Shown here piece after piece: positions 29,466 through 59,195 of a stretch of 64,000 bases of DNA. The stretch's first letter is position 1. Each line of letters begins with the position of its first letter. The notes beneath the pieces are model-generated. The model made no database searches. It was given only the letters and a program-made list of their open reading frames with translations, and was not told the DNA's origin. The stretch comes from Nemertoderma westbladi (Eukaryota; Animalia; Xenacoelomorpha): positions 56,904-120,903 of the forward strand of contig JAUCBJ010001318.1 in the NCBI GenBank assembly GCA_032718475.1, written 5' to 3'. Both the position numbers and the translations under genes were made by a program.

Positions 29466-29467
29466 TA

Positions 29468-30028: not shown

Positions 30029-30029
30029 T

Positions 30030-33303: not shown

Positions 33304-33305
33304 TA

Positions 33306-33689: not shown

Positions 33690-33726
33690 TGTTGCAACAT
33701 TATTGAAAATTGTTACAAAATATTAA

Positions 33727-35136: not shown

Positions 35137-35299
35137 TTTTCCAAATTTTAAAGTAAATTGAAAATAATTACCACAATACACAACAACAACAAACAAATCT
35201 GTTATACTGTATATACAATTACTACTACAATTTTCGATTATTTAAGAACATCAAAATTTTATATATAATCATAAAATATTTATAATATAGAGGGAAAAG

Positions 35300-36327: not shown

Positions 36328-36648
36328 TGGTTGGTGAAAAATTGCGATTTGAAAAATAATAGAAGTTACCTGATGCTAAGTGTAGACACCCGAACACCTG
36401 TAAAATAAAGGTTGGTGATTGGATGCAGTACTAGCGTTGGGTGACTAATAACGCCTCTAGCGGAATAAGCGGGAACTTGAGAAGTTACCATGGTTACGGA
36501 TGAAATGCTGACATCTGATTGGTTGAAATAATAACGACCACTGCAAAAGGTTGAAATGGTGGCTTCTGATTGGATGCAATACTAGAAATGGATGGTAATG
36601 ATGGACTACGGGTGACCTTGATGCCAGGGACATGTAATATATACTACT
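36328..36648 (+). repeat. Polinton right terminal repeat ending ACTACT
   Basis: Canonical terminus; LTR sequence starts at the very next base. Confidence 0.88.
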
Positions 36649-37852
36649 AACCTGCCAAATTTAGATGTCTTCTAGATTATAAATCGACTTTAGCCTATGA
36701 CAAATATTTGATACACTACATTAGCCGAAGCCAGTATATGCGCGACCATTCACCCGCTGGATATACCCGGGAGACTGGATTCGGAAGCTTGACCTTATTG
36801 CGGTGTAGGCCTACTGTATTATTCGACTGATCGTTAAGATATAATTTCTGACCAATATTATTCACTTTCGGGAAATATTAACAGTTCCTTTAGGACGTGG
36901 CGCTCTAAATATATAAACAGAGTTATGTCTTACACTAGACACAACGGGATGGCTATGGATTCACGTATAAAGCGCATTCTTTAGGAGATGCTTTGTTATC
37001 AATCACAATCATGCACACTACCGCACAATACTGCACAATGATCTGCCGACCTTCAGTAATTTTAGTTACATATAAAGAGAACAGTAACCGACTCATGTAG
37101 TGCCTATGAAATAGCATTAGATTCACTCCAAAACCACTTTAATGTAAGTCGCAATTGTTATATGTAACCGGTCTCTCTTACCTTCAGTATATCAAGAAGA
37201 TTGAGGGTTTTATAATTAATTTATCGATATTATCCAATATAATAATATTCCATCAACTGTTATAATTAATGACCGACAGTAAATAGCAGTAAAAATGTGG
37301 TGTTTGTAGTTGACAATATGATAATTATGTAGTGATATGGTTTGGTTTATAATGGTATGATATGTGTGGTTTGGTTTGTAATGGTATGATATGTGTGGTT
37401 TGGTTTGATCACAGATATACGTTTCGATGATCAAGCCTACTAATGTTGGGCTAAAGCCTGAAAACACAGAGATTCCAAAGCCGGTCTTCTGGCATCAGGA
37501 AAAAAGGTAAACATAAACAGTAATGCATTGCGCGATTTCCCGGAGGTTTCTGTACAAATAACAGGAGAATCGCTGTGATTGGTTGTCCGAACAAAGAGAC
37601 AAAGGAAAAGCTACACGTGTACAGATCAGCTGTTAGCCGTCGTCATAGTAACTACACTGTGTCAAGAGGATTTTAGCGTATTGCGACATAAAATTGCTAG
37701 TTATGTCCGCTAAAGTACACATACAGAAGAAATGGCTTTTTATGTCCACTAAAACACCAGTACAGTAATGAAACGGCCTTTTATGCCCGTCAAACCAACT
37801 ACAGAGTACTTTGCGGGGAAAATAACCAGCCAATTCCGCAAAAGCTTTTACA
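36649..37852 (-). repeat. 3' LTR of BEL copy 1 (starts TGTAAAAGC at 37852; cut by the Polinton at 36648)
   Basis: Preceded on the minus strand by PPT-like CTGGGAGCGG (37853-37862); the same TGTAAAAGCTT start is seen at 55697; about 7 differences in 732 bp versus the 5' copy. Confidence 0.88.
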
Positions 37853-37930
37853 CCGCTCCCAGAAAATGGGATTTAATTCTATAAAATATAAAAAATCACA
37901 GTTTCTAAAATATAAAAATACTCTAAACAG

Positions 37931-40900
37931 TTAGTCTTTCTTGCGCGGACGGCGTTTACGCAGTTTTTTGAGGCTAGCAAGAGTCATTTTCTCTTTGGGG
38001 CGAGCCACTTTACTAGGAGGGCTGTAACTCCTGGGTGAAGGGTGCAATACAATTGTATCAGAAGGTTTAGGATTACGATCGGTGTATCCGCCGGTCGAGG
38101 TACCTGGTTGATCGATGTCAACTTCAGTGGAGCGAGGTCTAACGGCCTTTAGGGCACGTCTTAGGACAGCAGCTCCTACTGGTCCCTGACGAGTCGTCTG
38201 GACAATAGCGGTAGGTGAACCGTGAGTGGTGACAAACTTCCTCGGTTTAATGGTTCTTTCCAGCTCGCGTTCTCTGGCTCGATATTCGTAGGGCCGTTGA
38301 GATACTTCCTGTAACTCAGGGTGCGAGTTGATAAATAAATCACCATACTCAGGGTCTTGACGGATGAAATTGATCAAATGGTATGAATTAATATCGTTAG
38401 GATTGACGTTCCTGAGATATTTTCGAACAAATTTGGTGGAAATACACTCACCAACACGCTTCATTAGTTCATAACTCGGTGTGCGTGTTTTTTGTTCAAC
38501 AGACGCGAATAGATATGGATGGAACGCGTAAACTCCCTCGTAGGCGCGTCCAGGGTAATAGCGATGGTGTGACTCACAATGCAAATCCGCGTTCGCTTCC
38601 CAAGCTCGGATGTAGCGCAGGGTAATCAACTCATCTACGCTTTCCAAATCGCGGTTAAAAGGGCAATTAAAACTGGCATGTCCTTTAAGTTGACAGTGGT
38701 GGCATTGAGTCATAAATTGGGGGCAGACTGCAAAAATGTGTGAGTTATTAAGTCTGCAATACGCACAATAGATCTCCATCATCGGTTGTTCATGGAAATA
38801 GGAGCAGGGTACGTCTGAGTCCATAGGGGTGAAATGATCTCTCGATGCGCATAATCGGCAACGTTTTCGAGAAACATAGTTGGTGTGCCGATAATCGTAT
38901 GCGGTGAGACATTGTGGACCTTGATACCATTCCAAAACGTAGTCGTTATCGCTGCTCCGGGGTGCTGTAGGCTGAATCTCTTCAGATTCTAAGCATATTG
39001 GTTCGTCCTCCAATTGCATAGTTGAGATAGGTGCGGCTGTCTCCGCAAGCGAACCCACTGTCTGAACTTCCACGACAGAATAACCCGTGGGTATTCGAGG
39101 TCTTTGTATAACAGATGAATGTAAGTTCTGTATACAAACGTCCTTGAAAAGGGCAAATCCCGCACTGTCTAACTTCTCTGCAGCTGAGTCTCTTAGGCTG
39201 AGTTTGGTCAGAGTGCGGTCCTTGAACTGACTATCAACGTTACGGAACGGAGTCAAAAAGCGCCTGAAACATTCGAAGCGGATGAATTTATTGTGTTCAT
39301 CTAGCTTGGCGAGTTTGGTTCCAAGTATTAAGGGATGGGCGCGTATGGTACGACTGCACACATCGGCTAGCCAACCGGCAAGTGCGGCGTTTTCAAAGAT
39401 CGTGTATATAGCTAAGGAGGGACGAAGTGGAACACTCATAAAGCTATACACGGCGCCAGCTGCGGTCAATGGTCCGTCAAAGTATAATCGAGAATAATGA
39501 TCTCCATATACTTGTTGATAGTTAATAGGATTTCCAACCTTGAAATTCCATCCGTATTCTTGAAAGGCAAGATGTCCGATGGAGGTTCGTTGTACTTTAG
39601 TAATGCCGCTGGGTGTATTTGCGTACATAGTGCGGAAGAAACCTCGGCCTTCTGCCCAGGGAGCAATCAGCTGAGTATCAACGAAAGGGTATGGAATGTT
39701 TTCCATGTTCCTAAAGTCGTTTTGGAGATCTCCATAAACAGCTGAGCCGATTTTAAGGATTCTTTCGTTAAACAACATCTCGAGCACGGGCTGGGGTAAC
39801 ATCGATCCATCGATACCCATGGCCGGTTTGCGCTCGGTGTCGGTGACGTAACGCTGCGCGAGTTCGAATTGTCCATGTCGGAGTTTCTTTTGTGTCTCGG
39901 TTAGAGTCTCAAAGGAATAATCAATCACATCGGAACACGCTCGAGTAAATACGTGGGTAGAACCAGCTAGTCCTTGTATGCGCATCATTCGCGTAGTTCC
40001 CAGTTCTCCAACCAGAACGCTACCTTCGTTATCGTAAGTGACAACTCCATACATTTCGATAACGTTAAGAGTCTCATTCCACTCTTTTGTGGCGTTTTCT
40101 AGAGTCATTCCCACTGGATGCCACAAGGTAGCGCATTTGCTAGCGTTAGGTAGATCTCTATACTTTAAATATTGTGTAGTATATGTTTCTAAATCTCCAT
40201 ATCGTTGTATTCTTTCCTCCTCGAATAACACATCGAGATTCCAGTGTACTAATCGAGTTTTGATGAATCCATCAAGATTATACGGAGGTATTGTCTCTTT
40301 CTCTATCCTGGAAACATTATAGGGTTTTCGAAATGAGTTTACTTTAACTAACTGGTCCAGATGTTTCTGCAGTTGTTCAAGTTCGACAAGATCGAGAGGA
40401 TTTATTAGTGGTAGAAACCTCAGACTATGTGTAGGATCTTCCGGTTTTACCATGTAATATTGCGTTAGATTGACATAATAAGGGTGATCTTTGATCCCAT
40501 AAAACGAGTTCGGTAAAGGTCTAGCGCATATGTTAACATCGTGTACCATGCGACGGACAAGATCCGCTCTATTGTCCGGAGGTTCAACGAGTATACCATC
40601 GACACGAGCGGCCTCGATTGGTGGACGTTGCAACATAGGAGCGTCAGCGATAAGATCTCGAGATCTTAGGTTGATATCAACCGGTTGAGGCTGTGCCGTG
40701 GCGAAGAGTTTGTCTCCGAAATGGGGAACCATCGAAGGATGGATGATGGTTTTAGAATAGAGATCCGTTATAAGAATTTGAGCTTCCGGCTGGGCTAAAG
40801 CTGCTTCTTCTCTCTCATCCATTTCTATATGTCTCTCCTCGAGCTGATTTTCCTCTGCTTGCTGTTGTATACGCTCGTCTAGGAACTCTTGTAAAGAGTA

Positions 40901-42178
40901 GGTGCGTCCACGTTCGATGTCTTCCTCGAGATCCTGTATTTCTCTATTGAACTGGGGTAAAGCTAATTCTTTCACCGCTTGGACTTGTTGCTGCAATTTG
41001 CGTTTCTCTAAACAATCGTAAGTTCCTTTTCCGATTTTCTGCCGAATAGCGTCTAAAGCGTTTCGTACAACGCTCTCTTCGACTTCAGTAACGGGTTGTA
41101 TCGGGTTTAAGCCTGGACGGTTGTACGGGTTAAACGGCGATATTAGATGACCGCGTCCTAATCCGGCTAGGCAGGGTTGGCGAATATCTAGTGAGCCCAC
41201 TACCGGAGTGCCACCGATCAACTGTCCGAGTAACACAAGATCCTTAAATAGTGAGTACAGTTCAGGGGGATCCGTTATACTATTAGGATCAAGCGTTTGA
41301 GGTCTCACTAAGGAATGAGGAGGTCTGACCGAGTATTCCGGAACTCTGATCATTGGTTTATTCAAGGATCGTTTGAGTCGAGCGAACGAAGGTGATACAT
41401 CGAACAGGTTTTGCTCAAAACTCCCCTAAGTATATCGTGTAAAACTGTGTTTAGCGCAACGTCTCCGCGGATGTTTGTGTCTTTCCGTTTGCTGATTGGG
41501 CCTAGGGCATTCGTCACAGTAATACCAAAGACACACGTCCTGCAGGGGAAACGCGGGTGATCGTTCTCCAGTTTTACGATATTCCTCCATCTGTTCGAAG
41601 CTATCTGGGACGACAGGTAGCGGTCGATCGGCGGTAAGATACATCATAGTGAAATAGAGTCGTTTGAGTTCTATCATAGGATCATGATGTATACCTTGAG
41701 GATATCGAGTTTCTAGATTTTGTTGACTGGCAATATTGAGATATGTTTCTCTCAGAAATTCCAGATAATCGTCGCTGCGTTTATCCGGCTCTTCAACGTC
41801 TTCTCTTTCGAGTCGGTTTCGAATAGAATTTTAGCATTCGATTCTCAATTTATCGTTCCTACTCCGCTGGGTATGATCTTTAAATAGGACCATTTCCCTT
41901 TCGGTGTCGATATCGTCCAAATCGTGTAAATCGATAGGATGGCCAGTAGTTAAGAAGTCCATATACGTACCATTACGATGCGTATAGCGAGCAGTGAATT
42001 TTCTATAGTCCAATTCATGCGTAAGTTGCTCCTGGGACATTGGCGGTTCGATATAACGACCATCGTCCTCCGTAGTAGTTGGACCAGCGTCGCCGCGTAT
42101 CAAGCTATTGACAAACGCTTGTAAAGGTAGAGTATATCGCTCCCTGATACCAAGATCATCTTCTATCAACTCAGTCAT
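37931..42178 (-). CDS. Extra retrotransposon ORF (~1415 codons, two in-frame stops): coiled region, DEDDy/WRN-EXD-like 3'-5' exonuclease domain, CCHC zinc knuckles, basic C-terminal tail
   Basis: ORFs 41831..42178, 41426..41677 and 37931..41365 share one frame; motifs VVTYDNEG, LPQPVLEMLFNERILKIGSAVYGDL...FVDTQ, PLRPSLAIYTIFE; CRLC..RDH, CAYC.....H....C, CHHCQLKGHASFNC. Confidence 0.75.
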
Positions 42179-42994
42179 ATCTGCTATATGAGTTTATCAA
42201 TATTATAATGAGTTTATATTTAGGCTAGCGGGCGTCGCTGCCTACCCCTCTCTGCCCCCGGACAGTGCAAGATCCTCAGCGCCGATGTACCGTCGTCGCT
42301 GTGTTTTCGCCAACGTCGTAGCTACACAACGACAACGATAACCGGCACAAGTCACTCCACTGTCCGTCCCAAAGGCTTAGATTTACTTCAGGTTCTTGCT
42401 GCAGAGTTAGGGTTACTTTCCCAATTGCGACTCGCTACTGTAAACACACCTTAGTAGTAACATTCACCTATAAACGCACAAATTCCACACAACTGTCACA
42501 AATTATACACATTCGGGCCATTTGTCCGTTAGTCAAGTGCCTTGCAGAATGTCACGTTATTATTATGTATCCTTGGATACTAGCAGTGTGCTATGTGTTC
42601 CCTATGCTATTCAATGGGGCAAGCTTTCTATTGTTCTTTTTGCTCACTTCTAATTCCAGCGTGGTTGTTGCTATGGTGACATTATGGAAAGCTAGCGGTA
42701 GAATTAGAGTAATTCTCATGCATACAGATCTGGGATGCTATTTAATAGTAATTCTTTAATTGTCAATATCCCCTTTATACATGATTTTATAAATTTTATC
42801 GGCTATTGACTATATATTGGAGATTCTTGCGCACTAATACACTTAATAGGGTGAATCTCCGCTCCCATGATCTATTAATTAATGGAATTTTGGGAATGTT
42901 ATAAATTGTATAAAAATGACAATTTATCAAATTCATTAAAACATGAATTTAAATTTATTCCCGTAAATTTTATTATTTAATATTAAATAGACAC

Positions 42995-43290
42995 AATTTT
43001 ATTCCAGAACATGTCTGGGGACTAGGATCCTTGATTCTAGGAAATTGGTCTTTTTAAGAATATCGGTAAGTGCTACGATATCTTAATAGACTAGAATTTT
43101 AAAGGACCTAAAATTTGACAGATTTTGTAAATATTAATAATTAATATTTAGGATGGGCACCAGTTTATTCCAGAACTTGTCTGGGGACGTTAACCACTGA
43201 TTCTAGAATTCGTCTTTCAAGTATATCGGTGGGTGCCGCGATATCTTAATCGACTAGAATTGCAGATGGTCAAAGGGTTTAACAGATTTA
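42995..43290. repeat. Diverged ~166-bp tandem duplication in the spacer between pol and the extra ORF
   Basis: TTTATTCCAGAAC(A/T)TGTCTGGGGAC...GATATCTTAAT.GACTAGAATT at ~42998 and ~43164. Confidence 0.8.
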
Positions 43291-43842
43291 TTTGCGTTAT
43301 ACGCTACTGTTAAAGGGACATCACGCTACTATATGTATTATTTAATATACGGTATGAGAGCAATATCGCACGAAGCAATGTCAGTGAGAAGAGGCAAGTC
43401 GTTTCCAAGGTCTACCCAGAGCTTGGTTTAGACGAGACATGAGGATCTGAATAATGCATTCCTAATACTCTACTTTACCAATAATACTTGAATATAGTAG
43501 GAGCTTTATTGTACTTTAATAAGTACGGAGATTTCATTTTACTGTAGTTACGTATTTGTAATGTAATACGGACAGTAAGGAAAGAGAAAAATAATTATTT
43601 CTCGCCGTCGCTGTAAATATATAATATATAAGTAACTAAGTAATAAACACTAATACATATTGCACTAATCTACTAAATAATCGCTAAAATAACATTCTAC
43701 TAAATAAAATTAAAGAAAACGATTATAATAAAATTACATAATAATACATACATAAATATAAAATAATAAGAATATAAAATAATATAGTCACACACCCACT
43801 CCAGACGTTGTTAAGTTGGGGAGTCCCTAGATGTTTGTTGGA

Positions 43843-46800
43843 TTAGGGAGGTGGTCGTGGGAAGAGTATCTTGCCTTCCATAGTTTCCGGAGAGTTCTCT
43901 GTCTCTTTCCAGGATAAACGACCAACTGGGCGATTGATCTGCTGTGTCTCGAAGACAATTCCCGGTTTCTTGAAGTTACGTCGCATGACGACGAGTTCTA
44001 CCGATCACACCAAACCATCATCCGAGATGTGAGTCTCGATGATACGACCTGTCTGCCACCGCTTACGGGGAAGATCTGAATCCACAATAAGGACCATGTC
44101 TCCAGCGCTGACGTTTTCTTGCTGCGCAAACCACTTAGTTCGAAGTTGTAGCGTGGGCAGATAATGTTTTTCGAAATGGTCAGCGAAACGATGGGATAAT
44201 AACTGCATAAGTTGCCAAGTTTGCCGGCAGTATTCGTCTCCGTCTGTAATTTCCGATCGTGGGAGCATGGCTACAGGTTTCTTCAGTAGGAAGTGCGCGG
44301 ATGTTAGCGCTTCCAGGGAATCGGGACTCGAGGAGACTGGCATAAGCGGTCTCTCGTTGAGATAGGCGGCGATTTCCTCCATTAATGTCCGCAAAAGTTC
44401 GTCGGTGAGATACGCGCGGCAGGGCACTATAAAGTGAAATGCGGTCTTCACGCTCCTGATTAATCTCTCCCAACTTCCTCCCCACCAAGGGGCGTCGGCG
44501 GCGTTGAAAGTCCAGCTAGACGCTGTTACCCTTAGCTGATCGTCCACCTGTCTTTGGTTCCAATCTTTAACGTAAGCTTTGATTTCATTGTTGGCACCAA
44601 TGAAGTTCGTTCCCTTATCAGATCTCATCGTGTTACTAGTTCCAAAGCGAGCGATCTGTCGTCGTAAGCTCAATAGGAAGCTGTTGATAGATAAATCGTT
44701 CACCATATCGAGATGGATAGCTCTACAAGTCATACAAACAAAGATGACACACCATCTCTTGACTATAGTCCTAGCACGATATACTTCAATAGGGCCAAAT
44801 AAATCTACACCGGTATTAGTAAAGGGTGGTTCATAGAAGCTTACTCGTTCCCTAGGTAATTCTGCCTCTCGCTGTGTTAAAGGCCTACTGAATGCTTTCC
44901 TACAGGGTATGCAGTTCCTAAGAACTTGGTTCAGAGCTCTACGGGGTTTATAAAAGTAATAGCGAGTTCGGATTTCGCTAAGAACTCGTTCTCTACCAGC
45001 ATGATAAAGTTTGCTGTGAACATCTACAATCATCTTGATTTGTATTTCAAGATTTCTAATGAGTATGGGAAACTTGGTGTCAAAGGATAATGGAGCATTA
45101 GTTAATCTTCCTCCAACACGTATCAACCCATCTATCATTGTGCTAGAGAAACGATCCCTTAAGCGCATCTGTGGATTTCTCAACAACAGGAAATACTTAT
45201 CGGAATCCTCATAGCATTGCAGGAGTCTCAGCATCTGCTTGTTGGTTTCTTCATGCTCCTGATAACTGATCTTCTCCTTCAGAAACCTGTCGGATATCTT
45301 ATATTTGGGAAGATCATTAACAACATGGACCTGCACAGATGTCAGTGGAGCGGTATCACTAGTGGTCTTCGCCCTGGAGTAGTGATGATGAAAACATCGT
45401 TTTAAATATGTAACGGCCTTACAGAGCCGATTCCAGGAACTGTAGTGATATATCGCTCTCTGCAGGAGAGGTGAGAGTCCTTGCGAGACGTCTGGTATTC
45501 CAGATTTCCAATCCTTCTCTCTGATTTCTACAACCGATTTATTGGTGGCTGAGGGTTTCGGATCCAAAGCGTCGTCTCCGGAAGTGTATAATACAGACAG
45601 ATCTACTACGGGTTTAAATAACTTCGATTTACTCGCCTGAGTTTTAGGTTTGACTTTCTCCGCTCCCTTGGCCTGTCTAATTTCTGCCGTAGTAAGATGA
45701 GGAGGCCATTCATCCTCTTCTTTGCTTAGGAAGTCGGGTCCACCTAACCAGTCTGGAGTATCTATCAGTTCTTGTGGAGTTGTTCCCCTGGAGGCGATGT
45801 CTGCTGGATTAATCGTTCCGGGGCAATGTCTCCATTGATCCATCTGCGTGCGACTAAGTATAATGGCTACTCTGTTGGTAACGAAGACGCTGAACTGACA
45901 GACTTCATTGGTTATATACTCTAACACGAGTAAAGCATCGGTCCAATAGACAGTTTTCTCCAGTGGATAGTCGATCTGTTCTGTTACATTCCGGCCGATG
46001 GCTGTAGCGTATAGAGCCGCTTTTAACTCCGCTCGAGCAACTTTCAACTTGTTGTTTATCAATGCCTTAGAGGTAACCAAGGCGACTTTGATTCCATCCG
46101 GAGTTTCCACTCTTAGGTAGGCTACTATACCTATTCCCATATCGCTGGCGTCTCCAAACACATGGAGTTGATAGGAATACGTAGGGAGAACATGACCAAA
46201 ATATGAACGGGAAATTATAAAGTTCTCGATGGCTGGTAGAGAATCTTCCCATTTCATCCACTTCTTTAATAATTCTCCCTTAAGTGGATCGTCCCATGAG
46301 TGGTTTTCAAGCCACATTTGTTGTACTAAACTCCGAGCAATCAATATAACCGGGCTAATAAATCCCAATGGATCGAAATAAGTGCTCAGGATACTTAAAC
46401 AAATCCGTTTAGTCCGAACTGGATTATCTCGATGTTTTAGCTGGAAAAACAGGATATCTCTCTCTGTCTCCCATTTCAAACCAAGTGTCTTGGTTTCTGG
46501 AAGATCATCTTTGATTAGGTCTAGGTCTTTCGCTCCTCGATCTTCTACCAGGATCGATTCCAGAAACTCACGGGAGTTGCTGGTGAATTTAGTTAATCGA
46601 AATCCACCTCTTTTTAAGCACTCTACCGTTCCTTTGGCGACATCAATGGCTTCCTCCACAGATGGAAGGGACTTTAGATTGTCGTCCATGTATATATCTC
46701 GTTTGATGTTGTCGATCACCTCTTTTGAGAAGGCGTCCCGGTTGTCATCAGCAGTGGTGCGCACCACTGAGCAGGCGTTTGAAGGGCTTGAGATGATCCC

Positions 46801-49800
46801 AAAAGCCTGGATGGTCATCCAATACTCCACCGGTTTCTGGTTGAGGTCTCCTTCAGGCCACCACAGAAATCGTAGGCTGTCTCGATCCCTATCCAGTGCC
46901 TTGACTTGTAAGAACATGCCTTCTATATCGGAGGCGAAAGCAATTGAATATTGTCGTAATCTTCAGAGTATTCCCAACAAGGACTGAAGCAAGTTGGGTC
47001 CTGGTAACAACTCGGAATTAAGGGATTGGCCCATGTAGAGGGCGGAGCCGTCGAATACTACTCGTACCTCATGAGGTTTACCGGGTTTGGGAACGTAATG
47101 ATGTGTCAAATAGTACATTCTTTCAGTTAGGGGTGTTCCTTCCGGTACTCGCTCCGCATATCCCTTATTAATGAATTTCTTCAACTGAGTCTGATACATT
47201 TCTTTAGCTGAAGCATTTGCCATAAGGCGTCGATGTAGTTGAGCAATTCTTTTCTCTGCCAAAGGTCTGTTGTTAATGAACTTTGGTTCTCGCTTTCGGA
47301 AAGGAAGACCGATCTCATATCTACCTTGATCTTTAAGAAAACGTGTAGTTGTCTCCTGGATCTGCTTGGCTCTTTCTTCTTCTACCAATAGGGCCTTATC
47401 GTAGGAATTGGGCTCCACAGCCTCTTGAGTAAAGAATCGTACGGCGTGTTCATCTCGAGTTTTCGCGTTATATCTCTCGATTACGTCATTCAGCTCGTCG
47501 TTATAGTTGACCTGTCCTGATGGACGAATGACTTGACATAGGTTCACTTGGTTTTGCCAAGTCTCGTTTTCCGTAAGGATATCGATTGTATTCTCTTCGT
47601 CGAAGAGCTGATGGATATCGTCATTATCTGAGCAGTATGGTGTTCCCTCAGTTGGGTCGTCAACTTCACTGCTCTCCACTTCCCATTCACTTAATTGATA
47701 TACCCGTTCTTGTGGTAATCTTTCCATTAGAGTTCTACGTGAAGGGCCAGTAAAGTACCAACCTACTCTAGTTCTTCCCGCATAGACTTGCAATGGTTGC
47801 GGTTGAGCAGGCCGTTTCGCTAATGTCTCAAGCACTTCATGCGCATTTTGGCCGATGAGTATTTGCACTCCAGGGTAATCTGTGTTGAATCTAGGTATAT
47901 TAAGCTGCTGGGTGGAATCGTCCTCATCCCAGTTATAAGGTTCTACTTGGCTGGTAGCGAAGTTCTTTATCGCCACCATTTTTACTGACCTTATACTATG
48001 TTCTCCTAGTTCGTCCTGGGGGGTGGACAACGCACCTACATAATAATCAGCTATTACTGTAGATTTCCAAACCTGCATAATTCCTGACATGTTTAACTTA
48101 GTTCGGAACTTGGGTTGTCCAGCAAAGATGTCTTCGGCTAGTTCTTTGTCGATGAATGTTCCTGTGCTACTGGAGTCAAGGAGGGCGTTCACTATATAAC
48201 TCCTTTTAGGTCCCGGGACTCTTAACTGCACTACTGGAAATTCTCGGATTCCTACATTGGAAGTTGGTGCTTTCCAAGATGGTTGTCGGTCAGAAGTAGT
48301 TAGGGGGAGCTCGCTGTCTGTGTCTTTTTCATACGTAAGTGCTCGATACACTGCAGTATTTATCAGGTAACAGGATTCGTTTTCATCGGAGAATTCGTCC
48401 GTATAGAATCCTTCCATCTCAGAACCTTGGTCAGTGTCGTTCACGTCACTGAATTGGACATGCAGTTCGGAATCACTTACCTGACTCGGGCTGTTTCGTT
48501 CGAATTCAGTGTGCAACAAGATATGATGTTTTGCGCCACACTTCGCACACGTTGCGTCGGAGTAACAGGTTCGCCTTTGGTGTCCTTGTCTGAGGCAATT
48601 ATAACACAACCGCTTATCCCACATGACTTCCCGTCTATCCTTTAATGATTTCTTTAGGAATTCATCACACACATTCAAACGGTGGGTCCCGTCACATAGC
48701 GCACATTTCGGTTTGATATTACTTATCTTATTTTGAGTAATGTTGTGCACACTCATTCTTTCTTCGGGCTTTCTTACCTGAATTCTCTTAGGAGACGTAG
48801 GAGGAGTTTTTCTTACCTGTTCTCTCCTGTCATTGGTTCGAGACTTGAATTTACTTACGTCTTTAGGCGTTTTATTGACATAATAAGATCTTTCAGTGTC
48901 TTTCCCGCTGTCTTCTTCTTGAGAAGCCTGGCTTTCGCCGTCGTCGGTATAACACACTGGTGTTACTTTTCTCCTAGAAACTGGTTTCTCACTTACCTTG
49001 TTTTCCGGTGTCTTCTCTCTGGACTGCTTTAGGAGCTGTAATTTCACTTCTCCATCTAAGAATGACATGAGATCAGCCATGGTAGGGTCTCGTCGTTGTT
49101 GTTCCATCATATATAACACTTTCTTATCCCGGCATGTACCTACTCCACGCTTAGGTAAAGTAGAGGCCACGGCTCCAATAACCATAGAACTCTGATATTC
49201 ATGAGACTTACCTAGCCAATCTAATTGTCTACAGATCTCCTGAATCTCATCGGAAAACTCGATAATCCCGCTGCTAATGAACTTTCGGGGCACTACCAAT
49301 TTTGCATACAAATACCTAGCTATGTTATTCCTATTACCATACCTGATGTTTAGTGTATCCCAAACTTGTCTTAATCCATCTGGATGTCCAATAAACTTTA
49401 ACGCCATTAACTTGGGAGATCCTTCCAAGCACTCGATGAGGAATCTCAGTTTCTCTCCGTTAGATAGCACAGAGTTCTGTATGTTATCTTTGTAATATTC
49501 ATTAAAAGGTAACCATTTCATCTCATCTCCATTGAACTTGACGATCTCTCCCACCTTTACCGCTTGACGAGCTTCGGTTCTAGCCATTTGACGCGTAAAA
49601 CTTTCTTGGGCCATCATGTTATTTAATATCGAGTTATCGGTATATAAATTTCTCGGATTATTATCAAGTCTATATGGAATATCATTGTCAACAGGTTTAT
49701 AATTACCCTTAATAGGGTTTACTATAGGAGTTTCCACTTCACTAGCAGTATAGATGCGTGTAGGCTCTACACCTTGTGCATGAGATACTTCAGACCTAAC

Positions 49801-51875
49801 AGGTTGACACATTGTTACCGGGGGTGGTGGTATACCTCTTTGGGTATTTACTAATTTATCGCGTTCTAACGCGATACTTTGCTGCACTTCATGCAACTCT
49901 AACCTACTTTCCCTTACTGTGCCTTTGAATTGCTGAACAGTCTCCTGCATCTGCCCGAGCAGGAGATCCATCCCCCGTCGTCTCTCGTTGTAGCGGGTGG
50001 ACGAGGGACAACAGGCGACAAATCATTAATATTTCGCTCGGAGTCCAGGACATGAACATTTTCAGGGATGGTTCTGTGGGGCACAGGTAGCTTAGTGCTG
50101 TGCAGAGGGAATTTAGAGGTAAGTTCTGGGAGTACAGGTGTCTCTATCACCAAAGGGGTGGCGTCGAGAACAGGCCTAATTATTTCAGGTTCATCTACTA
50201 TAGTAGGGAGTCTTTCTATTTTAATTGTTTGGTCTGTGGGTTCTGTACTACCTAAGTCTGGGTTAGTTAGTTGCTTTCTAACAGCTGGGGGCAAATCAGG
50301 CAATTTCTGACGGTGGGACATTCTTCTACGCCTACTTAGACGAGATCTATTTCCTCCGCCTTCAAGATATGTGGTATCGCCTTCATCAGATGATGTAAAT
50401 CCCTGTCGTTTGGGAGTAGATCGACTCATCATCTGCATTTGACTAGCTGTTAACTGTTTATTGAAGTTGTCCTGCCTCTCTTGAAGATTTTCCAACTCTA
50501 ATTGGGTTGTCTCTTCAGATGCCCTCCGTTCTGCTTCTGCCACTGCCACTTTTCTTTCTGCTTCTGCCGATGCTATTGCCGCCTTTCTTTCCACTTCGGC
50601 CGCTTTTCTTTCCGCTTCTGCCGCTGCCATTGCCGCTTTCTTTTCCACTTCTGCTGGCTTTCTTTCCGCTTCTGCTTCTGCCGCTGCCGCTGCTGCTGTC
50701 TTTCTGTCTTCTATACGTTTTTTCCTTACTTGTTCCTCTTGAACCTTAGTGATGCGGATGCTTTCATCGAATTTAGCTTGGTTCGCAGCTAACATATCCG
50801 CATCGATTGCGTCCAACACAAGCTTGGCTCCTTCACTATTAGGGCTAAGTCCATCCAGCCGTCTCCTCAACTCTTCGTCCCCTACAAATCGTTGATAGTC
50901 TGACAGATAGATGTCAATAGCATCCCTCTTATGCGGTTTCTCTGCTGTCGCTTCGCTTTCCACTTGGGAAAAGGTAGCGTCTGTTGATTCTCCATGGGTT
51001 GAGCGCTCATCCAACTGAGATTTCCACGGGGCAGTTCTTTGAACTTGGAGACTCACCCGCTGAAACCAAGTCTTTACGGCAACTTGCAACGACGTGTCTT
51101 GTCTTCTTTTCGAAGCCTCCTCAAAGGCAGATAAGATTAGTCTGATTCTTAGAATTCTTTCTCTAACTTGATAAAGCAGCTCTCCCTGCTCTTGAGGTCC
51201 TTGTGGTTGTCGAAACAATTGTTCCTCTAATCGCTCCATAGAGCTGAAGAATCCCTGTACGTATCCGGCTGCTGACCTCTTCCATACAGCTGGATCGCTG
51301 GTTTCTTTTGTCACTCCCATCCTGTGTATGTCTTCCCAGGCAGCTTCCGATATGTCAAACGGGAGTCCCGGTCCGGGGAAGTTCCATTGCGACTCGACAA
51401 TAGACTTCAGTTCTTCCCTTGTATATCCCGCATAACTATCCTTGGTCGATCGCTTACTTCTCGCCCAATCAATCTGGTGTTCCTCCACCGCAATCAATAC
51501 CCTAGTGAGTATGGCTGCAGGAAGGATGAGAAGGGGATCCGAATAAACCGCATCTGCCATCTTAGCTCCGCGCTCGGGTGTCAGCTCTACGGTATCCGCA
51601 CTACTGGAGCTGTCGGGCCGCCGAGAAATAAGTTCTCGGCTCGAGTGTTGCTGCTGTTCCGCTGCTTCTTGGTCCCGCTTGACCTGAGCTCGAGTGCCTA
51701 TGATAGACCTACGGTGTTGGACTAGCCTAGGGTCTGATACTACTACTGGAGGGATGATCTTTCTTACAGTAGGAGGTGAGTTGAACTTCGGTCTCACACG
51801 TTCCACACTCCTGTCTGGGTCACAGATGGTTGTATCTAGGAGACTGTCTGACAGGTTTTGCTTTGTGTCAGACAT
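43843..51875 (-). pseudogene. BEL/Pao gag-pol polyprotein (Gag zinc knuckles, protease, RT, RNase H, integrase) with one frameshift (~49975) and two in-frame TGA codons (46963, 44005)
   Basis: Triple knuckle CALCDGTH..C / CYNCLRQGH..C / CAKCGAKHHILLH; ALLDSSS; RVVFD, YMDD; LHVFGDAS, RAEL, YWTD; H..H..CIPC, GVDLFGP, SDKGTNF, WGGSWERL. Confidence 0.96.
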
Positions 51876-52004
51876 GTTTGTTTGTACAGTTGAATGCCTA
51901 CTGCTATATTACAGCTTAAGTAAGTCTAGTAATTCAGTATCACCGTTAGCCTAGTAATTAATTACCGATATCGTTACTCTATGTAACGTGATATATATAC
52001 AATA

Positions 52005-52395
52005 TATTAGAATACCGGTATACAATTATAGTATGTATATAAGTATTATTACAGAATAGGTTTGTCACAGAATACCGGTATATAATTTCAGCACAAATAT
52101 ATAGAAATATATGATAGGCCTATCGTGAATACCGGTATATGACTTACACTTATAGTATATAAGTATAATTATAGACTAGAATTAATTACAGAATACCGGT
52201 ATATAATTTCAGCACAAATATATAGAAATATATAATAGGCCTATCGCAAATACCGGTATATGACTTACACTTATAGTATATATAAGTATAATTATAGACT
52301 AGAATTAATTACAGAATACCGGTATATAATGTCAGCACAAATATATAGAAATATATAATATAATAAGCCTATTGTAAATACCGGTATATCAATTA
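52005..52395. repeat. Tandem ATACCGGTAT-containing ~60-bp repeats in the BEL 5' UTR
   Basis: Seven ATACCGGTAT cores at ~60-bp spacing; counterpart at 58810-59065 in copy 2. Confidence 0.8.
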
Positions 52396-53339
52396 TTTTA
52401 GAATAATTGAATTTCTGAATTTTTAGGGGTTACTTGGTTACTTTACTTTACTTGATTACCGTTATTTAAGCAGTAGTCCAACTGATATTAAGACCTAATT
52501 GATGTATGACAGGCCTATTATTTTAAAAATCGGTTTGAGTTGATTTATAATATTTGTGTACCCGTTTAATGGGTTTTGTCAATATTTGAAATAAATGTTA
52601 TTATTTCTGGGAAGGAGTCACTGCACAGAAGCTGTATGCTCTCAGTGAAGTGCTACTTGTTGGACACTAAAACAAATAATTCTAATTTACCTAAGTTACT
52701 TAATACTACAAATTACGTACAATACGGGGTTAGATTACAATCTCTAAATAAACACAAAAATTACACGTACGAATTTTTAGGGTAATTTTACAAGAAGTCT
52801 ACAAACCAGCCTAACAAAGGGTTAGAATATCTGGTTATTGCAACGGACAGGGTACTACAGTATTTGAAAATAACAAAGCAGTAGTAAATATACTGTGTTG
52901 TCCAGATAGGAAAAATACCACCGTCTGACGACTTATAGCCGTATCGCTATAAGTACTACGTTATGTATCACGGAGTGTTCCTACCTAGAAGTTAATTACC
53001 GCGGTCTACCAGAACCAACGTGCCTATTAACCACTTTACAACACAAATATACTGCCTACACACTAATTACCTTCGGAAAGTATTGTACACTAAACCCTAA
53101 ATTAGGTACAAGTACTTATACAACAAATAACTAGCAGTTAGAAATACTTGTACAGCTAAAAGAACCACGGCATCTGCTGGAGTGACCGGGGCACAAAATC
53201 ACCAGTCTTTACCTACGCCAAGCAGCCCTGATGTAGTACCGGGGTTAATTTAACTATAACGGTATATATAACAAGCACAATTACTGTAGGAATAAACTTG
53301 GGGATATGAATGTTGCGAATAATCGCATAAACTCTGAAT

Positions 53340-53920
53340 AATAAATATTACGCTGCGCGTACAGACTACTCAAACAAAATGCAGACCAAATGCTGACAGA
53401 CTACTATCAAGCCTAAACAAACTACGGTATATGCAGACTCCGAAATGGTTAGTTAGTATGCGTTCTAACCGAGTAGTACGACTTATTCTTTCAGGGGGAT
53501 TGACCTCACAACACTGGAAGCCCCTACGTTCCTAACTAGTACTTTATCGGACATACACTCTACACACACCGCAATCTCTTCAGACCTAACAACAGCAAGG
53601 CAACAATCCAGCCTACAGATTATCTAAATAAGAAATATTACGCTACCCGAACAGACTACACATACAAAATACAGACCAAACGCTGGCAGACTACTATCAA
53701 GCCTAATCAAACTACAGTATATGCAGACTCCGAAATGGTTAGTTAGTATGCGTTCTAACCGAGTAGTACGACTTATTCTTTCGAGGGGATTTACCTCACA
53801 GCACTGGAAGCCCCTACGTTCCTAACTAGTACTTTTTCGGACATACGCTCTACACACACTACAATCTCCTCAGACTTAACAACAGTCAGACAACAGTCCA
53901 GCCTACAAATTATCTGTATA
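53340..53920. repeat. ~290-bp tandem duplication in the BEL 5' leader
   Basis: GCAGACTCCGAAATGGTTAGTTAGTATGCGTTCTAACCGAGTAGTACGAC occurs at 53433 and 53723; counterpart duplication at ~57310-57870. Confidence 0.85.
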
Positions 53921-54225
53921 ATCTGGGCAGGCTTACACGTCTTCTGCTCAATATTAACCTACAAGTAAATAAAACTGACAGAAATAAGTAAGCTCCAAAA
54001 GAAACAAGGGGTGTACAGTCCCTAATCTCTTAAACAGCCTACCGGTATACAATATCACAATCGAAATAATACTAGTACCTGTACTGCAGTAAGTACCGGT
54101 TCGGGTGGTTAGGTAGTTAGGCCTACTAGTTACCAGTCGACCGGTACTTTTGCCCTTTTATTGCCTACGTGCAATAAAGAAACGTATATCTGTTATTGTT
54201 CGCGCTTTCAGACCTTTAGCAGTTT

Positions 54226-54957
54226 AACCTGCCAAATTTAGATGTCTTCTAGATTATAAATCGACTTTAGCCTATGCCAAATATTTGATACACTACATTA
54301 GCCGAAGCCAGTCTATGCGCGACCATTCACCCGCTGGATATACCCAGGAGACTGGATTCGGAAGCTTGACCTTATTGCGGTGTAGGCCTACTGTATTATT
54401 CGACTGATCGTTAAGATATAATTTCTGACCAATATTATTCACTTTCGGGAAATATTAACAGTTCCTTTAGGACGTGGCGCTCTAAATATATAAACAGAGT
54501 TATGTCTTACACTAGACACAACGGGATGGCTATAGATTCACGTATAAAGCGCATTCTTTAGGAGATGCTTTGTTATCAATCACAATCATGCATACTACCG
54601 CACAATACTGCACAATGATCTGCCGACCTTCAGTAATTTTAGTTACATATAAAGAGAACAGTAACCGACTCATGTAGTGCCTATGAAATAGCATTAGATT
54701 CACTCCAAAACCACTTTAATGTAAGTCGCAATTGTTATATGTAACCGGTCTCTCTTACCTTCAGTATATCAAGAAGATTGAGGGTTTTATAATTAATTTA
54801 TCGATATTATCCAATATAATAATATTCCATCAACTGATATAATTAATGACCGACAGTAAATAGCAGTAAAAATGCGGTGTTTGTAGTTGACAATATGATA
54901 ATTATGTAGTGATATGGTTTGGTTTATAATGGTATGATATGTGTGGTTTGGTTTGTA
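54226..54957 (-). repeat. Part of the 5' LTR of BEL copy 1, interrupted at 54957 by a LINE
   Basis: Near-identical to 36649-37380. Confidence 0.9.
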
Positions 54958-55696: not shown

Positions 55697-58600
55697 TGTA
55701 AAAGCTTCTGTGGGATATAACTGGCCCCTTTTGCTTCGCAATCCAGTTTCCCCCCAGGCGCTGGAATACTCTAAAAAGGTTCTCTAACTGTATATATATT
55801 CCCCTCGCCCGCAAGGTACCGTTACAGGTGTTTTAACGGACATAAAAGTCATTCTGCTATATACGTGTTTTGGCGACATGGTAAGGCAAAAAACCTGTAA
55901 TGCACCAACTACCTTTCACAGCTTAGCCGTGATGATTCATATTACGACATCTAACAGCTGGTTGCTGACATGGAAACAGCCATTGGATGCATGGTTCTTT
56001 GTTTGGCTTGAGCCAATCAGAGCGATTTTTCCTGTCGACGTGTAGCTTTTCAGCCGATCATAAGGAGAGTGTTCAGTCTTACTGCCTTACTTGATACTTT
56101 GTTGTTATTGCTGTCTAAGCCAGAAACACCGGCTTTTTGGGAAGAACTCTAGTAAACTGCTTAGATTATAGAAAGTATAACTGTTACCGGCGGTGTTACC
56201 TCACTTAATTTAACTGCACTAATCATATTGTTTGTACTGCTATTTACCGTCAGTTATTAATTGTATCTATTTGTTGATGGAAATATTGCTCTTTGGAGAA
56301 TACGGATAAATCACCCAAAATTCCCAATTTTCTTGATACACTACAGGTTAGAGAGGCGGGCTATATATAACAATTGCGATTTATATCAATGTGGTGTGTA
56401 TTGAATCTAATGTTATTTAGTAGACACTACCTGAGTCAATTGCTGTTCTCTTTCTGTGTGATCAAATATACTGACGGTCGGCAGAATAGTGTGCATGATT
56501 GTGAGTGTGATGTGACTGGTAACAAAGCATTTCCTAAAGAATGCGACTTATACTTTAATCATAAGCCTTATCGTTGCGTTTAGTATAAGTCCTAGCTCTG
56601 TTTAAATAGATAGAGCGCCACGTCCTAAAGGAACTGTTAATATTTCCCGAAAGTTAATAATATCTGTCAGAAATTAATTATTAGTGATCTATCGAATAAT
56701 ACAATAGGTTTACACTGCAACCTTACACTGCAATAATAAAATCTAAGCATCCGAATTCAGCCTCCCGGGTGTAGATCCATCGGGTGAATGATCGCGCATG
56801 GGCTGGCTTCGGCTAATGTTTTGTTTATTAGCATAAAATATTGTCGTATGCTAAAGGTGTGTTAATTAACTAAAAGACATATAAATTTTGGCAGGTTAAA
56901 CTGCTAAAGGTCTTCAAAAGCGCGAACAGTAACAGTTATAATCTTATTGCAGTAGGCAATAAGGTTGCAAGTGTAGGCATTAAATACAGTTTAATACTGT
57001 TCTGTCGAACAGTAACAGTTAACGATCTTATTGCAGTAAGCAATAAGGTTGCAAAATACCGTAGTGACCGGTAAAACTGAACCGGTACTTCTGCAGGTCA
57101 GTAGGCCTAACTGTCATCACCGGTACCGGTACTGCTGTACAAGTACATTTAGTATTATTTCGATTGTGATCTATTGTATATTGTAGGCTGCCAGGGGAAT
57201 AGGGATTGATCACCCCTCATTCTTTTGTATAGTTTACTTATTTCTGTCGGTTTTATTTACTAGTAGGCTAATATTGAGCAGAAGGCGTGTGACCCTGCTC
57301 AGATTGTTCAGATAATTGTAGGCTGAGCTGCTGTCTGACTGTTGTTGAGTTTGGAGAGATTACGGCGTGTGTAGAGTTGGTCTGATCAAGTGCCGTTAGT
57401 AAGTTGGGGCAGCCATATGCTGAAGGTCAATCCCCTCTTAAAGAATAAGTCGTACTACCGTGTTAGAACGCATACTAACTAACAGTTTCAGAGTCTGCAT
57501 ATACTGTAGTTTATCTAGGCTTGATCGTAGTCTGCCAGTGTTTTAGCCTGAGTTTGTTTGTGCGGTCTGTTCAGGTACCGTAATAGTTATTACTCAAATA
57601 TTTGTAGGCTGGATTGTTGTCTAGCTATTCTTAGGCCTGAAGGGATTGCTGCGTGTGTAGAGTTGGTCTGATAAAGTGCCGTTAGTAAGTTGGGGCAGCC
57701 ATAAGCGGTAAGGTCAATCCCCTCTTAAAGAGTAAGTCGTACTACCGTGATAGAACGCATACTAACTAACAGTTTCAGAATCTGCACATACTGTAGTTTG
57801 TTTAGGCTTGATAGTAGTCTGCCAGCGTTTGGTTTGTATTTTGTTTGAGTATTCTGTACGGGTAGCGTATTATTTATTATTCAGAGTTTATGCGATTATT
57901 CGCAACATTCATGTCCCCAAGTTTATTCCTACAGTAATTGTGCTTGTTATACATACCGTTATAGTTAAACTAACCCCGGTACTACATCAGGGCTGCTCGG
58001 CGTAGGTAAAGACTGGAGATTTTGTGCTTCGGTCACTCCAGCAGATGCCGTGGTTCTTTTAACTGTTCAAGTATATTTAACTACTGATTATTTGTTATAC
58101 CGGTACTTGTACCTAATTTAGGGTTTAGTGTACAGTGCTTTCCGAAGTAATTAGTGTAGGCAGTATATTTGTGTTGTAAAGTGGTTGATAGGCACATTCG
58201 TTAGCTCTATTAGCTTCTGGGTAGGAACAATCCGTGATACATAACGTAGTACCTATAGCGATACGGTTATAGGTCGTCAGGCGGTGGTATTTTCCTATCT
58301 GGACAGTACAATATATTTACTACTACTTATTATTTAAATACCGTAGTACCCTGTCCTTTGTAATAACCAGAAATCTAACCCTTTGTTGGACTGGTTTGTA
58401 GACTTCCTGTAAAATTACCCTAAAAATTTCGTACGTAATATTTTTGTTGTGTTTAATTAGAGAATTAATCTCACCCGTATCGTAAGTAATTTGTAGTATT
58501 AAGTAACTTAGGTAAATTAGAATTATCAGTTTTAGTGTCAAATAAATAGCACTTCACTGAGAGGCGTTCAGCTTCTGTGTAGTGACTCCCCCAGAAATAA

Positions 58601-59195
58601 TAACATTTATTTCAAATATTGACAAAACCCTTTTAAACGGGTATATAAATATTATAAATCAACTCAAACGATTTATAAATAGTAGGCCTGCCATACAACA
58701 ACTAGGTCTCAATATCAGTTGGACTGCTGCTTAAATAACGGTAATAAAGTAAGTTAAAGTAACCAAGTAACCCTAAAATATTCAGAAATTCAATTATTCT
58801 AAAATAATTGACATACCGGTATTTACCATAGGCTTATTATATTTATTTCTATAAATTTGAGCCGAAATCATACCGGTATTCTGTAATTAATTCTAGTAAT
58901 AATTATACTTATATATACTATAAGTGTCAGCTGTATACCGGTATTCACGATAGGCCTATTATATATTTATATATATTTGTGCTAAAATTATATACCGGTA
59001 CTCTGTGACAAATCTAGTCTGTAATAATACTTATATATATATTATAAGCATACCGGTATTCTAATATATTATATATATATCACGCTACACTGAGTAGCAG
59101 TATCGGTAATTAATTATTAGGCTAACAGTGATACTGAATTACTAGACTTGCTTTAACTGTAATATAGCAGTAGGCATTCGACTGTACAATCAAAC

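What the first reader, a model, noticed from the sequence alone, without database searches (positions are those of the whole stretch)
37931..42178. BEL/Pao retrotransposon carrying a large exonuclease + zinc-knuckle gene in the 'env' position
Seen: between pol and the PPT/3' LTR, on the same strand as gag-pol, lies one ~1415-codon frame broken only by two point stops, the same level of decay as gag-pol. It shows no obvious signal peptide or transmembrane segment, so it is not env-like. It has a DnaQ-family DEDDy pattern: ExoI VVTYDNEG (~40025-40050), ExoII region LPQPVLEMLFNERILKIGSAVYGDL...FVDTQ (~39670-39800), and ExoIII-like PLRPSLAIYTIFE (~39393-39430, Glu in place of Asp). Two or three CCHC knuckles (~38660-38865) and a basic NLS-like tail follow. 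Knowledge: this spacing matches the WRN-exo/EXD/MUT-7(Nibbler)/RNase D group, several members of which trim small RNAs; extra BEL/Pao ORFs I know of are mostly envelope-like. Inference: a retrotransposon-encoded RNA-binding 3'-5' nuclease that could be a counter-defence against piRNA/siRNA silencing or could process the element's RNA or cDNA ends. This is my best candidate for an undescribed system here.
Basis: partly seen in the sequence, partly recalled or inferred. Interest (0 to 1): 0.86.

Follow-up and report, generated by a model that had tools for sequence, protein, structure and literature searches.

The report
BEL/Pao retrotransposon with nuclease-like third gene
A large, many-copy jumping gene of the BEL/Pao group carries, where relatives sometimes have an envelope gene, a big extra gene that likely encodes an RNA-trimming enzyme with RNA-gripping zinc fingers, a kind of cargo reported before in other groups of jumping genes but not found described for this one.

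Summary
A 1415-codon minus-strand frame (42178-37931, two stops) lies between BEL/Pao gag-pol and a purine tract plus 3' LTR. The LTR starts at 37852, a boundary also fixed by a second copy in the window.

The element is about 18.8 kb, young (LTR overlap 99% identical) and many-copy. ORF3 is covered in 4 of 4 runs; its nine diverged pieces listed (17% different) have no gaps.

A DEDDy (RNase D/EXD-type) domain is likely, not proven:
- Only ExoII aligns with statistical support (hhalign 90.6%).
- A distant homologue with the same exonuclease plus three-knuckle layout shows ExoI and ExoII.
- Both folds failed; ExoIII has two possible placements, so catalysis is open.

Precedent: DEDDy ORF3s are published for rotifer Juno/Vesta LTR elements and Terminons, and trypanosome RNase D has the exonuclease plus knuckle layout. 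I found no BEL/Pao case; Repbase and Dfam were unsearchable.

Extra finding: both copies pair the primer-binding position with their own LTR, using different letters, a self-priming signature.

Verdict: new variant of a known kind; function untested.

The parts
36648..37852 (-). 3' LTR, about 28 bp short at its far end (full LTR estimated at 1233 bp)
   Evidence: 99.0% repeat of 54225-54957 over 733 bp (7 differences); start homologous to copy 2's 5' LTR start; length estimate
37411..37425 (-). LTR segment complementary to the primer-binding position (candidate self-primer)
   Evidence: 15-nt exact complement; 0 of 2000 shuffles reach 13 nt
37853..37860 (-). Short purine tract directly before the LTR start (candidate PPT)
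   Evidence: sequence; a loose end at 37853 with mixed flanks (agreement 0.57, 3 contigs of run X4)
37931..42178 (-). ORF3, 1415 codons, broken by stops at 41831-41833 and 41426-41428; main open part 41425-37931
37934..37969 (-). Basic C-terminal tail, NLS-like (inferred by eye)
38663..38860 (-). Three CCHC knuckles (first and second with atypical spacing), followed by a short motif shared with P0001 and P0002
   Evidence: profile hit to HIV-1 nucleocapsid E=2.4e-4, also Lin28 and Air2; Pfam zf-CCHC_3 E=0.003, below cut-off
39392..39430 (-). ExoIII candidate A (Tyr...Glu)
   Evidence: aligns with P0001's Tyr...Glu
39434..39472 (-). ExoIII candidate B (Tyr...Ser, would lack the fourth acid)
   Evidence: both MAFFT modes
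39671..39799 (-). ExoII region, the statistically supported DEDDy segment
40022..40045 (-). ExoI candidate (Asp-x-Glu)
   Evidence: aligned to the RNase D ExoI acids in 1 of 2 MAFFT modes; the equivalent in P0001 aligns by hhalign
42179..43842 (-). 1.66-kb non-coding spacer between pol and ORF3, with an AT-rich block and a 135-bp internal duplication
43843..51875 (-). BEL/Pao gag-pol, with one frame change near 49950 and stops at 46963-46965 and 44005-44007
   Evidence: Pfam Peptidase_A17 E=2.3e-35, DUF5641 1.9e-16, DUF1759 1.9e-11, Integrase_H2C2 3.6e-7
51876..54196 (-). 2.3-kb leader; its first 18 nt are the primer-binding position, complementary to the element's own LTR
54197..54957 (-). 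5' LTR, missing its first ~470 bp, next to a LINE remnant
55697..64000 (+). Second, diverged copy of the family (5' LTR 55697-56928, leader, gag); runs off the window, so its ORF3 is not visible
   Evidence: 76-85% identity

Best explanation
This is a young copy of a many-copy, roughly 18.8-kb BEL/Pao retrotransposon family whose third gene is kept in frame among diverged copies and likely encodes an RNA-binding 3'-to-5' exoribonuclease of the RNase D/EXD type, predicted to help the element by trimming or sequestering host RNAs that would silence it. Shown: position inside the LTRs, many copies, frame conservation, knuckles, lack of a membrane segment. Likely (about 0.85): the DEDDy fold. Inferred: a separate subgenomic message; nuclear import through the basic tail; knuckles gripping single-stranded RNA 5-9 nt from the 3' end while the nuclease trims, by analogy with trypanosome RNase D. 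Inferred and weakest (about 0.35-0.4): that it acts in trans on the host's small-RNA or RNA-surveillance pathway. I favour this because unrelated mobile elements have picked up the same enzyme class, which points to a general benefit.
For: Integral gene: ORF3 ends 78 nt before an LTR start confirmed by copy 2, leaving no room for the end of a nested element on that side; LTR overlap differs at 7 of 733 positions. Family-wide: 30 of 30 bins covered in each of 4 runs from 3 studies. Constraint: of the 32 pieces listed, the 9 on ORF3 have 720 differences and 0 gaps in 4149 nt; the 10 on pol have 639 differences and 7 gap letters; the 13 on non-coding or LINE-remnant DNA have 148 gap letters and none is gap-free. 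DEDDy assignment: the only 2 of 18950 NCBIfam models hitting the segment are RNase D (E=0.0044, 0.027); two-sequence profile against 12 bacterial RNase D/PolA exonucleases gives probability 90.6%, E=1.3e-6 versus E=0.57 for an unrelated control; ORF3 ranks first of 191 window frames at 7.3 bits, above the best of 1000 shuffles at 3.6; homologue P0001 aligns over ExoI and ExoII (probability 88.9%), and its ten best Atlas hits with a family share one family or clan, led by PF01612 clusters (Euglenozoa exonuclease plus CCHC, then EXD1-like). Layout shared with P0001 and, in degraded form, P0002. Trans action fits high-depth variants that lack the nuclease region (joints 39011-41841 in X4, 38084-40813 in X3).
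Against: No structure: both AlphaFold models failed (pLDDT 32 and 33). Pfam gives no hit for the window's exonuclease segment, and the two-sequence profile finds no DEDDy protein in the PDB. All family hits are far below curated cut-offs, and the Atlas top score of 0.86 is a lead only and is for the homologue, not the window protein. ExoI aligned in only 1 of 2 modes and ExoIII has a placement without the fourth acid; P0002 has Lys in place of the ExoI Glu. The pieces are 32 of about 183,000, chosen as the longest, which may favour gap-free ones. Codon positions of the 16 listed ORF3 differences show no clear third-position excess (7 of 16). No contig shown bridges pol and ORF3. Nothing here bears directly on piRNA or siRNA. 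In rotifers the authors found no unambiguous link between such ORFs and copy number (PMC5408684).
Confidence: 0.4

Rival explanations
1. The same nuclease works on the element's own nucleic acids: it would trim the 3' overhang of the self-primer back to the duplex after the first cut, or polish RNA or cDNA ends during replication.
For: Both copies pair the primer-binding position with their own LTR (15 and 12 nt; cross-pairing only 8 nt), so a primer 3' end must be made from the element's RNA. Trypanosome RNase D trims small-RNA 3' ends with this layout (PMC7797062). End-processing was proposed for rotifer ORF3s and Dada transposases (PMC3706591).
Against: Tf1 self-priming depends on RNase H cleavage (title of a cited paper seen). 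Earlier AI notes on self-primed BEL/Pao families mention no nuclease gene in the lines shown (unchecked). A separate 1400-residue gene with a nuclear-type tail is more than primer trimming needs.
Confidence: 0.25
2. The domain is a catalytically dead or weak DEDDy derivative that works by binding RNA, like EXD1 or Maelstrom, as a decoy or as an adaptor that protects or moves the element's RNA.
For: The fourth acid is Glu or Ser depending on placement; about 40 extra residues lie between ExoI and ExoII; P0002 lacks the ExoI Glu; the second Atlas hit for P0001 is an EXD1-like cluster.
Against: P0001 keeps Asp, Glu, Asp, Tyr and Glu at all five places in both alignment modes, and the window has a matching set under placement A. 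Rotifer ORF3s also swap one Asp for Glu and were read as intact.
Confidence: 0.22
3. ORF3 is a knuckle-bearing accessory protein whose middle domain only resembles DEDDy enzymes over one short segment.
For: For the window protein alone only 45-49 columns align, at probability 30%; no fold support.
Against: The homologue aligns over 96 columns including ExoI; several methods name the same family at the same segment.
Confidence: 0.1
4. ORF3 is neutral captured cargo, or belongs to a separate element nested in or joined to the BEL element; the AT-rich block behind pol would be an old LTR.
For: The block at about 43790-43380 follows a purine-rich stretch and looks LTR-like by eye; copy 2's ORF3 is outside the window.
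Against: The block has no partner in the window. The same LTR is linked to gag on one side in both copies and to ORF3 on the other. ORF3 is frame-constrained and many-copy.
Confidence: 0.05

Closest known systems
DEDDy-exonuclease ORF3 of bdelloid rotifer LTR retrotransposons Juno and Vesta, shared with Athena/Terminon elements (PMC5408684: passages and whole Discussion read; PMC6431247: passages)
   Same: Non-envelope ORF3 behind pol encoding an RNase D-like DEDDy domain, one catalytic Asp replaced by Glu, same proposed roles (3'-end processing, silencing), activity untested.
   Different: Juno and Vesta are not described as BEL/Pao in the passages read (I recall them as gypsy-like). No triple knuckle is described in those passages. 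ORF3 here is 1415 codons.
Trypanosoma brucei RNase D, TbRND (PDB 7C42, 7C45; PMC7797062: passages)
   Same: 3'-5' exonuclease followed by tandem CCHC fingers that bind the RNA substrate; the authors call this combination very unusual. The top Atlas hit of P0001 is a Euglenozoa cluster with this layout.
   Different: A cellular mitochondrial enzyme of about 380 residues with a short linker and four fingers. Here about 180 residues separate the domains, and the sequence match to 7C45 covers the knuckles only (E=0.6), so the likeness may be convergent.
BEL/Pao retrotransposons, Belpaoviridae (PMC8742986: whole text; PMC3118150: passages)
   Same: Gag and pol domains and order, LTRs, purine tract.
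   Different: Described as 4.2-10 kb with an optional env-like third gene and a tRNA-Arg or tRNA-Gly primer site. This element is about 18.8 kb, has a non-envelope third gene and shows a self-complementary primer site. 'Exonuclease' occurs 0 times in the main text of PMC3118150.
Tf1/Tj1 self-primed LTR retrotransposons (PMC4600332: passages)
   Same: Primer-binding site complementary to a segment of the element's own LTR.
   Different: Fission-yeast elements of another lineage; the transcript start here is unknown, so self-priming is a signature, not shown.
Dada DNA transposons with a DEDDy domain (PMC3706591: passages)
   Same: A mobile element carrying a DEDDy exonuclease domain.
   Different: The domain sits inside a DNA transposase, all four acids are conserved, and it is proposed to process DNA ends.

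Membership tests
BEL/Pao (Belpaoviridae) | Pao-type gag-pol domains in the order Gag, protease, RT, RNase H, integrase | tested here: met
   DUF1759, Peptidase_A17, Integrase_H2C2, DUF5641 over cut-off and in this order; RT motif seen in the translation; no RT tree was built
BEL/Pao (Belpaoviridae) | Flanking LTRs | tested here: met
   733-bp overlap at 99.0%; start confirmed by copy 2; both LTRs of copy 1 are truncated and no target-site duplication is visible
BEL/Pao (Belpaoviridae) | Purine tract of about 10 nt before the 3' LTR | tested here: inconclusive
   An 8-nt tract with one pyrimidine lies directly before the LTR start; no run of 9 or more purines there
BEL/Pao (Belpaoviridae) | tRNA-complementary primer-binding site | tested here: inconclusive
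   No TGG start behind the LTR end in either copy; the site is complementary to the own LTR instead; host tRNAs were not available for a direct test
BEL/Pao (Belpaoviridae) | Length 4.2-10 kb as described by ICTV (descriptive, not a formal criterion) | tested here: not met
   16344-bp internal part plus two 1233-bp LTRs, about 18.8 kb (from coordinates; range)
env-like ORF3 | Signal peptide, transmembrane anchor, glycoprotein homology | tested here: not met
   Highest hydropathy window 1.52; no envelope family in Pfam
DEDDy 3'-5' exonucleases (RNase D/WRN/EXD group) | ExoII segment with conserved Asp | tested here: met
   Asp566 aligns to RNase D Asp85 in both modes
DEDDy 3'-5' exonucleases (RNase D/WRN/EXD group) | ExoI Asp-x-Glu | tested here: inconclusive
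   Window: aligned in 1 of 2 modes; homologue P0001: aligned in both modes and by hhalign
DEDDy 3'-5' exonucleases (RNase D/WRN/EXD group) | ExoIII Tyr-x3-Asp | tested here: inconclusive
   No Asp in either placement: Glu or Ser; P0001 has Glu
DEDDy 3'-5' exonucleases (RNase D/WRN/EXD group) | DnaQ-like fold | tested here: inconclusive
   Both models too poor to search; Atlas features of P0001 point to PF01612 at 0.86
DEDDy 3'-5' exonucleases (RNase D/WRN/EXD group) | Two-metal exonuclease activity | not testable with these tools
   needs an assay
Rotifer Juno/Vesta/Athena DEDDy ORF pool | Common ancestry with those ORFs | not tested
   their sequences were not retrieved; the only homologues found were P0001 and P0002
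Tf1-type self-primed elements | Primer site complementary to own LTR, kept with different letters | tested here: met
   15 nt (0 of 2000 shuffles reach 13) and 12 nt (3 of 2000 reach 12); cross-pairing 8 nt; best of 104 and 101 leader windows in each copy; two copies only
Tf1-type self-primed elements | Complementary segment lies at the transcript 5' end and is cut to give the primer | not testable with these tools
   no RNA data

The most novel reading that the evidence does not exclude
A giant BEL/Pao retrotransposon that primes itself without tRNA and brings its own RNase D-like, zinc-knuckle nuclease as a dedicated enzyme for shaping short RNAs: it matures the self-primer and can also trim the host's silencing RNAs. 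That would be a transposon-encoded small-RNA trimmer in a widespread family of mobile exonuclease-knuckle proteins.
Probability: 0.15. Interest if true: 0.82.

Novelty: new variant of a known kind. Interest (0 to 1): 0.52.

Why it matters
Animal transposons have few known counter-defence or accessory enzymes. DEDDy ORF3s have been an untested curiosity since 2017. A many-copy, frame-conserved case in a further retrotransposon superfamily suggests repeated selection for this enzyme class. It also gives a substrate-testable protein: the nuclease-like and knuckle region is open as it stands. The element is almost twice the described size limit for BEL/Pao and shows a self-priming signature, so it links two open questions: how these elements prime, and what their extra genes do.

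Tried and rejected
Homologue searches that found nothing new: word-indexed protein search with the window region (0 of 5660 candidates), with the three-sequence alignment (0 of 7992) and with P0001 (only itself among 1553); viral contigs (0 of 38, no pattern match, 0 of 16, 0 of 93); prokaryote genomes (0 of 600, 0 of 26); phages and plasmids (none or E of 6 or more); PHROGs (unnamed weak hits); PDB with the window protein alone (no relevant hit) and with pol (none). The metagenome scan returned only P0002's 3.7-kb contig, L001 (1 of 141), with no other long ORF, so the genomic context of both homologues is unknown.

Folds: two AlphaFold jobs failed, so no fold search was run. The Atlas search with the window's own segment did not complete.

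No RNA holder was listed, and no whole genome is held.

A spaced four-motif pattern matched the window and P0001 and 0 of 5000 shuffles, but also 0 of 12 true DEDDy proteins. It was fitted after the fact and is not used.

Codon positions of the listed read differences (7 of 16 third-position in ORF3, 3 of 10 in gag-pol) are uninformative, since most look private to this copy. Depth is not read as copy number.

Rejected readings: the 733-bp repeat as the whole LTR (it is only the overlap of two truncated LTRs); the AT-rich block behind pol as a true LTR (no partner). A splice-acceptor scan of the spacer gave 2 weak candidates.

Two papers could not be read.
Full report
Observation. The frame is real. 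From the ATG at 42178 to the stop at 37931 the minus strand holds 1415 codons with two internal stops, where about 75 would be expected. The two upstream pieces have the same codon-position GC pattern as the main part and as pol. The highest hydropathy window is 1.52 and Pfam shows no envelope family.

The element. Gag-pol (51875-43843) is BEL/Pao by four Pfam families over cut-off. A 733-bp repeat at 99.0% flanks gag-pol and ORF3 together. This repeat is only the overlap of two truncated LTRs. Copy 1's 3' LTR starts at 37852, 78 nt behind the ORF3 stop and right after a short purine tract. A second, 76-85% identical copy starts its 5' LTR with the same 11 letters at 55697 and is homologous downstream. 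One loose end with mixed flanks at 37853 fits this edge. The LTRs come to 1233 and 1232 bp, so the whole element is about 18.8 kb, against 4.2-10 kb given for the family (PMC8742986, whole text). No target-site duplication is visible, as both outer ends are lost. The host is an unidentified eukaryote; no genome is held.

ORF3 belongs to the family and is constrained. All 30 bins of the element are covered in 4 of 4 runs from 3 studies. Of the 32 pieces listed there, out of about 183,000, the 9 on ORF3 show 720 differences and no gap in 4149 nt (2219 distinct bases). The 10 on pol show 639 differences and 7 gap letters. The 13 on the spacer or the LINE remnant show 148 gap letters. The leader of copy 1 versus copy 2 has 28 indel events per 289 substitutions, a rate that would give about 70 events in the ORF3 pieces. 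The pieces are the longest ones, which may favour gap-free matches, and dN/dS was not measured. High-depth variants lacking the nuclease region exist (joints in X3 and X4). No listed contig bridges pol and ORF3. Whether the two stops are private to this copy stays open.

What the protein is. Among 1.84 billion representatives only two proteins scored E of 0.001 or better. P0001 has the same order, a nuclease-like domain, then three knuckles and a shared short motif, in 648 residues; pairwise E is 1e-14 for the nuclease part. P0002 has a degraded N-terminal domain and two knuckle blocks. Both are single-member clusters without names, and their context is unknown. The window segment hits only RNase D among 18950 NCBIfam models (E=0.0044), far below cut-off, and nothing in Pfam; P0001 hits PF01612 at E=0.2 in the same segment. 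The two-sequence profile against 12 bacterial RNase D and PolA-type exonucleases gives 90.6% over 49 ExoII columns. P0001 alone gives 88.9% over 96 columns including ExoI, the window alone 30%, an unrelated control E=0.57. An HMM of those 12 ranks ORF3 first among 191 window frames, above all 1000 shuffles. The Atlas places P0001 nearest a Euglenozoa exonuclease-plus-CCHC cluster (0.86, a lead only), then an EXD1-like cluster. Against this: both folds failed, the PDB profile search found no DEDDy protein, ExoI aligned in 1 of 2 modes, and ExoIII has two placements, Tyr-x3-Glu or Tyr-x3-Ser. I put the DEDDy fold at about 0.85 and catalytic activity at about 0.55. The knuckles match retroviral nucleocapsid, Lin28 and Air2.

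Self-priming signature. I first saw a 15-nt inverted match between the LTR and the start of the leader. Earlier AI notes on self-primed BEL/Pao elements led me to test it. In copy 1 the match begins 3 nt behind the inferred LTR end (0 of 2000 shuffles reach 13 nt). In copy 2 a different 12-nt match begins directly at it (3 of 2000 reach 12). Cross-pairing reaches only 8 nt, and the first window is the best of 104 and 101 leader windows. This resembles Tf1 and Tj1 (PMC4600332, passages). It rests on two copies and an LTR end chosen by eye, and the transcript start is unknown.

Mechanism. By analogy with trypanosome RNase D, whose knuckles hold nucleotides 5-9 from the 3' end while the nuclease trims (PMC7797062, passages), ORF3 would be an RNA 3'-end trimmer. 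The substrate is not shown. I favour host silencing or surveillance RNAs (0.4), because DEDDy domains recur in rotifer LTR elements, Terminons and Dada transposons and because the tail looks nuclear. Trimming of the element's own primer or ends (0.25) and a dead RNA-binding domain (0.22) remain close rivals.

Known and new. PMC5408684 (passages and whole Discussion) already reports DEDDy ORF3s in LTR retrotransposons and raises both 3'-end processing and silencing. Unchecked AI notes list further gypsy cases, including Rrp6-like plus knuckle and dead DEDDh versions. I found no BEL/Pao case in literature searches (listings only, apart from the papers named), in the main text of PMC3118150 (passages) or in the scan's notes. 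Repbase, Dfam, GyDB and subscription papers could not be searched, and no supplements were read; the BEL/Pao sequence supplement of PMC3118150 may bear on this. I have an unverified recollection that some nematode Cer (BEL) elements were reported with an exonuclease-like extra domain; the papers were not held. If true, novelty drops to a new member of a known kind.

Verdict. A real, constrained accessory gene in a giant BEL/Pao family: a new variant of a known kind, with likely DEDDy identity and untested function. Interest 0.52.

Noticed in passing
window 54179-54196 with 37411-37425; 56929-56940 with 56176-56187: Both BEL copies pair the primer-binding position with their own LTR, using different letters: a tRNA-independent self-priming signature.
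   Followed up: yes
window 14513-34080: A Polinton/Maverick-like element with 1.5-kb inverted repeats at 95.6%, an rve integrase and a polymerase-B-like ORF and capsid-like ORFs recognised by eye from the translations; several ORFs look broken.
   Followed up: partly
window 25112-25747 (+): Inside the Polinton-like element, an ORF with two TATA-binding-protein repeats (Pfam TBP E=5.3e-10).
   Followed up: partly
window 27181-27807 (-): Polinton ORF of about 200 residues with an N-terminal acidic motif that looks DEDD-nuclease-like by eye; no Pfam hit.
   Followed up: partly
window 34684-35241 (-): ORF with a RING-finger-like motif just outside the Polinton repeat; weak Pfam hits below cut-off.
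   Followed up: partly
window 43380-43800 (-): AT-rich block behind pol that starts after a purine-rich stretch and looks like an LTR; no partner in the window. May be an internal promoter or a relic.
   Followed up: partly
window 54965-55720 (+): LINE endonuclease remnant between the two head-to-head BEL copies; copy 2 starts inside its reading frame.
   Followed up: no
window 49914-51908 (-): About 650 residues of low-complexity, coiled-coil-like sequence in front of the recognisable Gag domain, with no family hit.
   Followed up: no
window 53333-53921 and 52010-52395: A 290-bp tandem duplication in the leader, present in both copies, and ~120-bp repeats that differ in number between the copies.
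   Followed up: no
window 1-3500, 4357-6758, 9707-10461: Tandem arrays: a 20-bp unit near the window start and two further arrays.
   Followed up: no
L001 79-2025 (P0002): Homologue with a degraded exonuclease-like N-terminus and two copies of the triple-knuckle block, alone on a 3.7-kb contig.
   Followed up: partly
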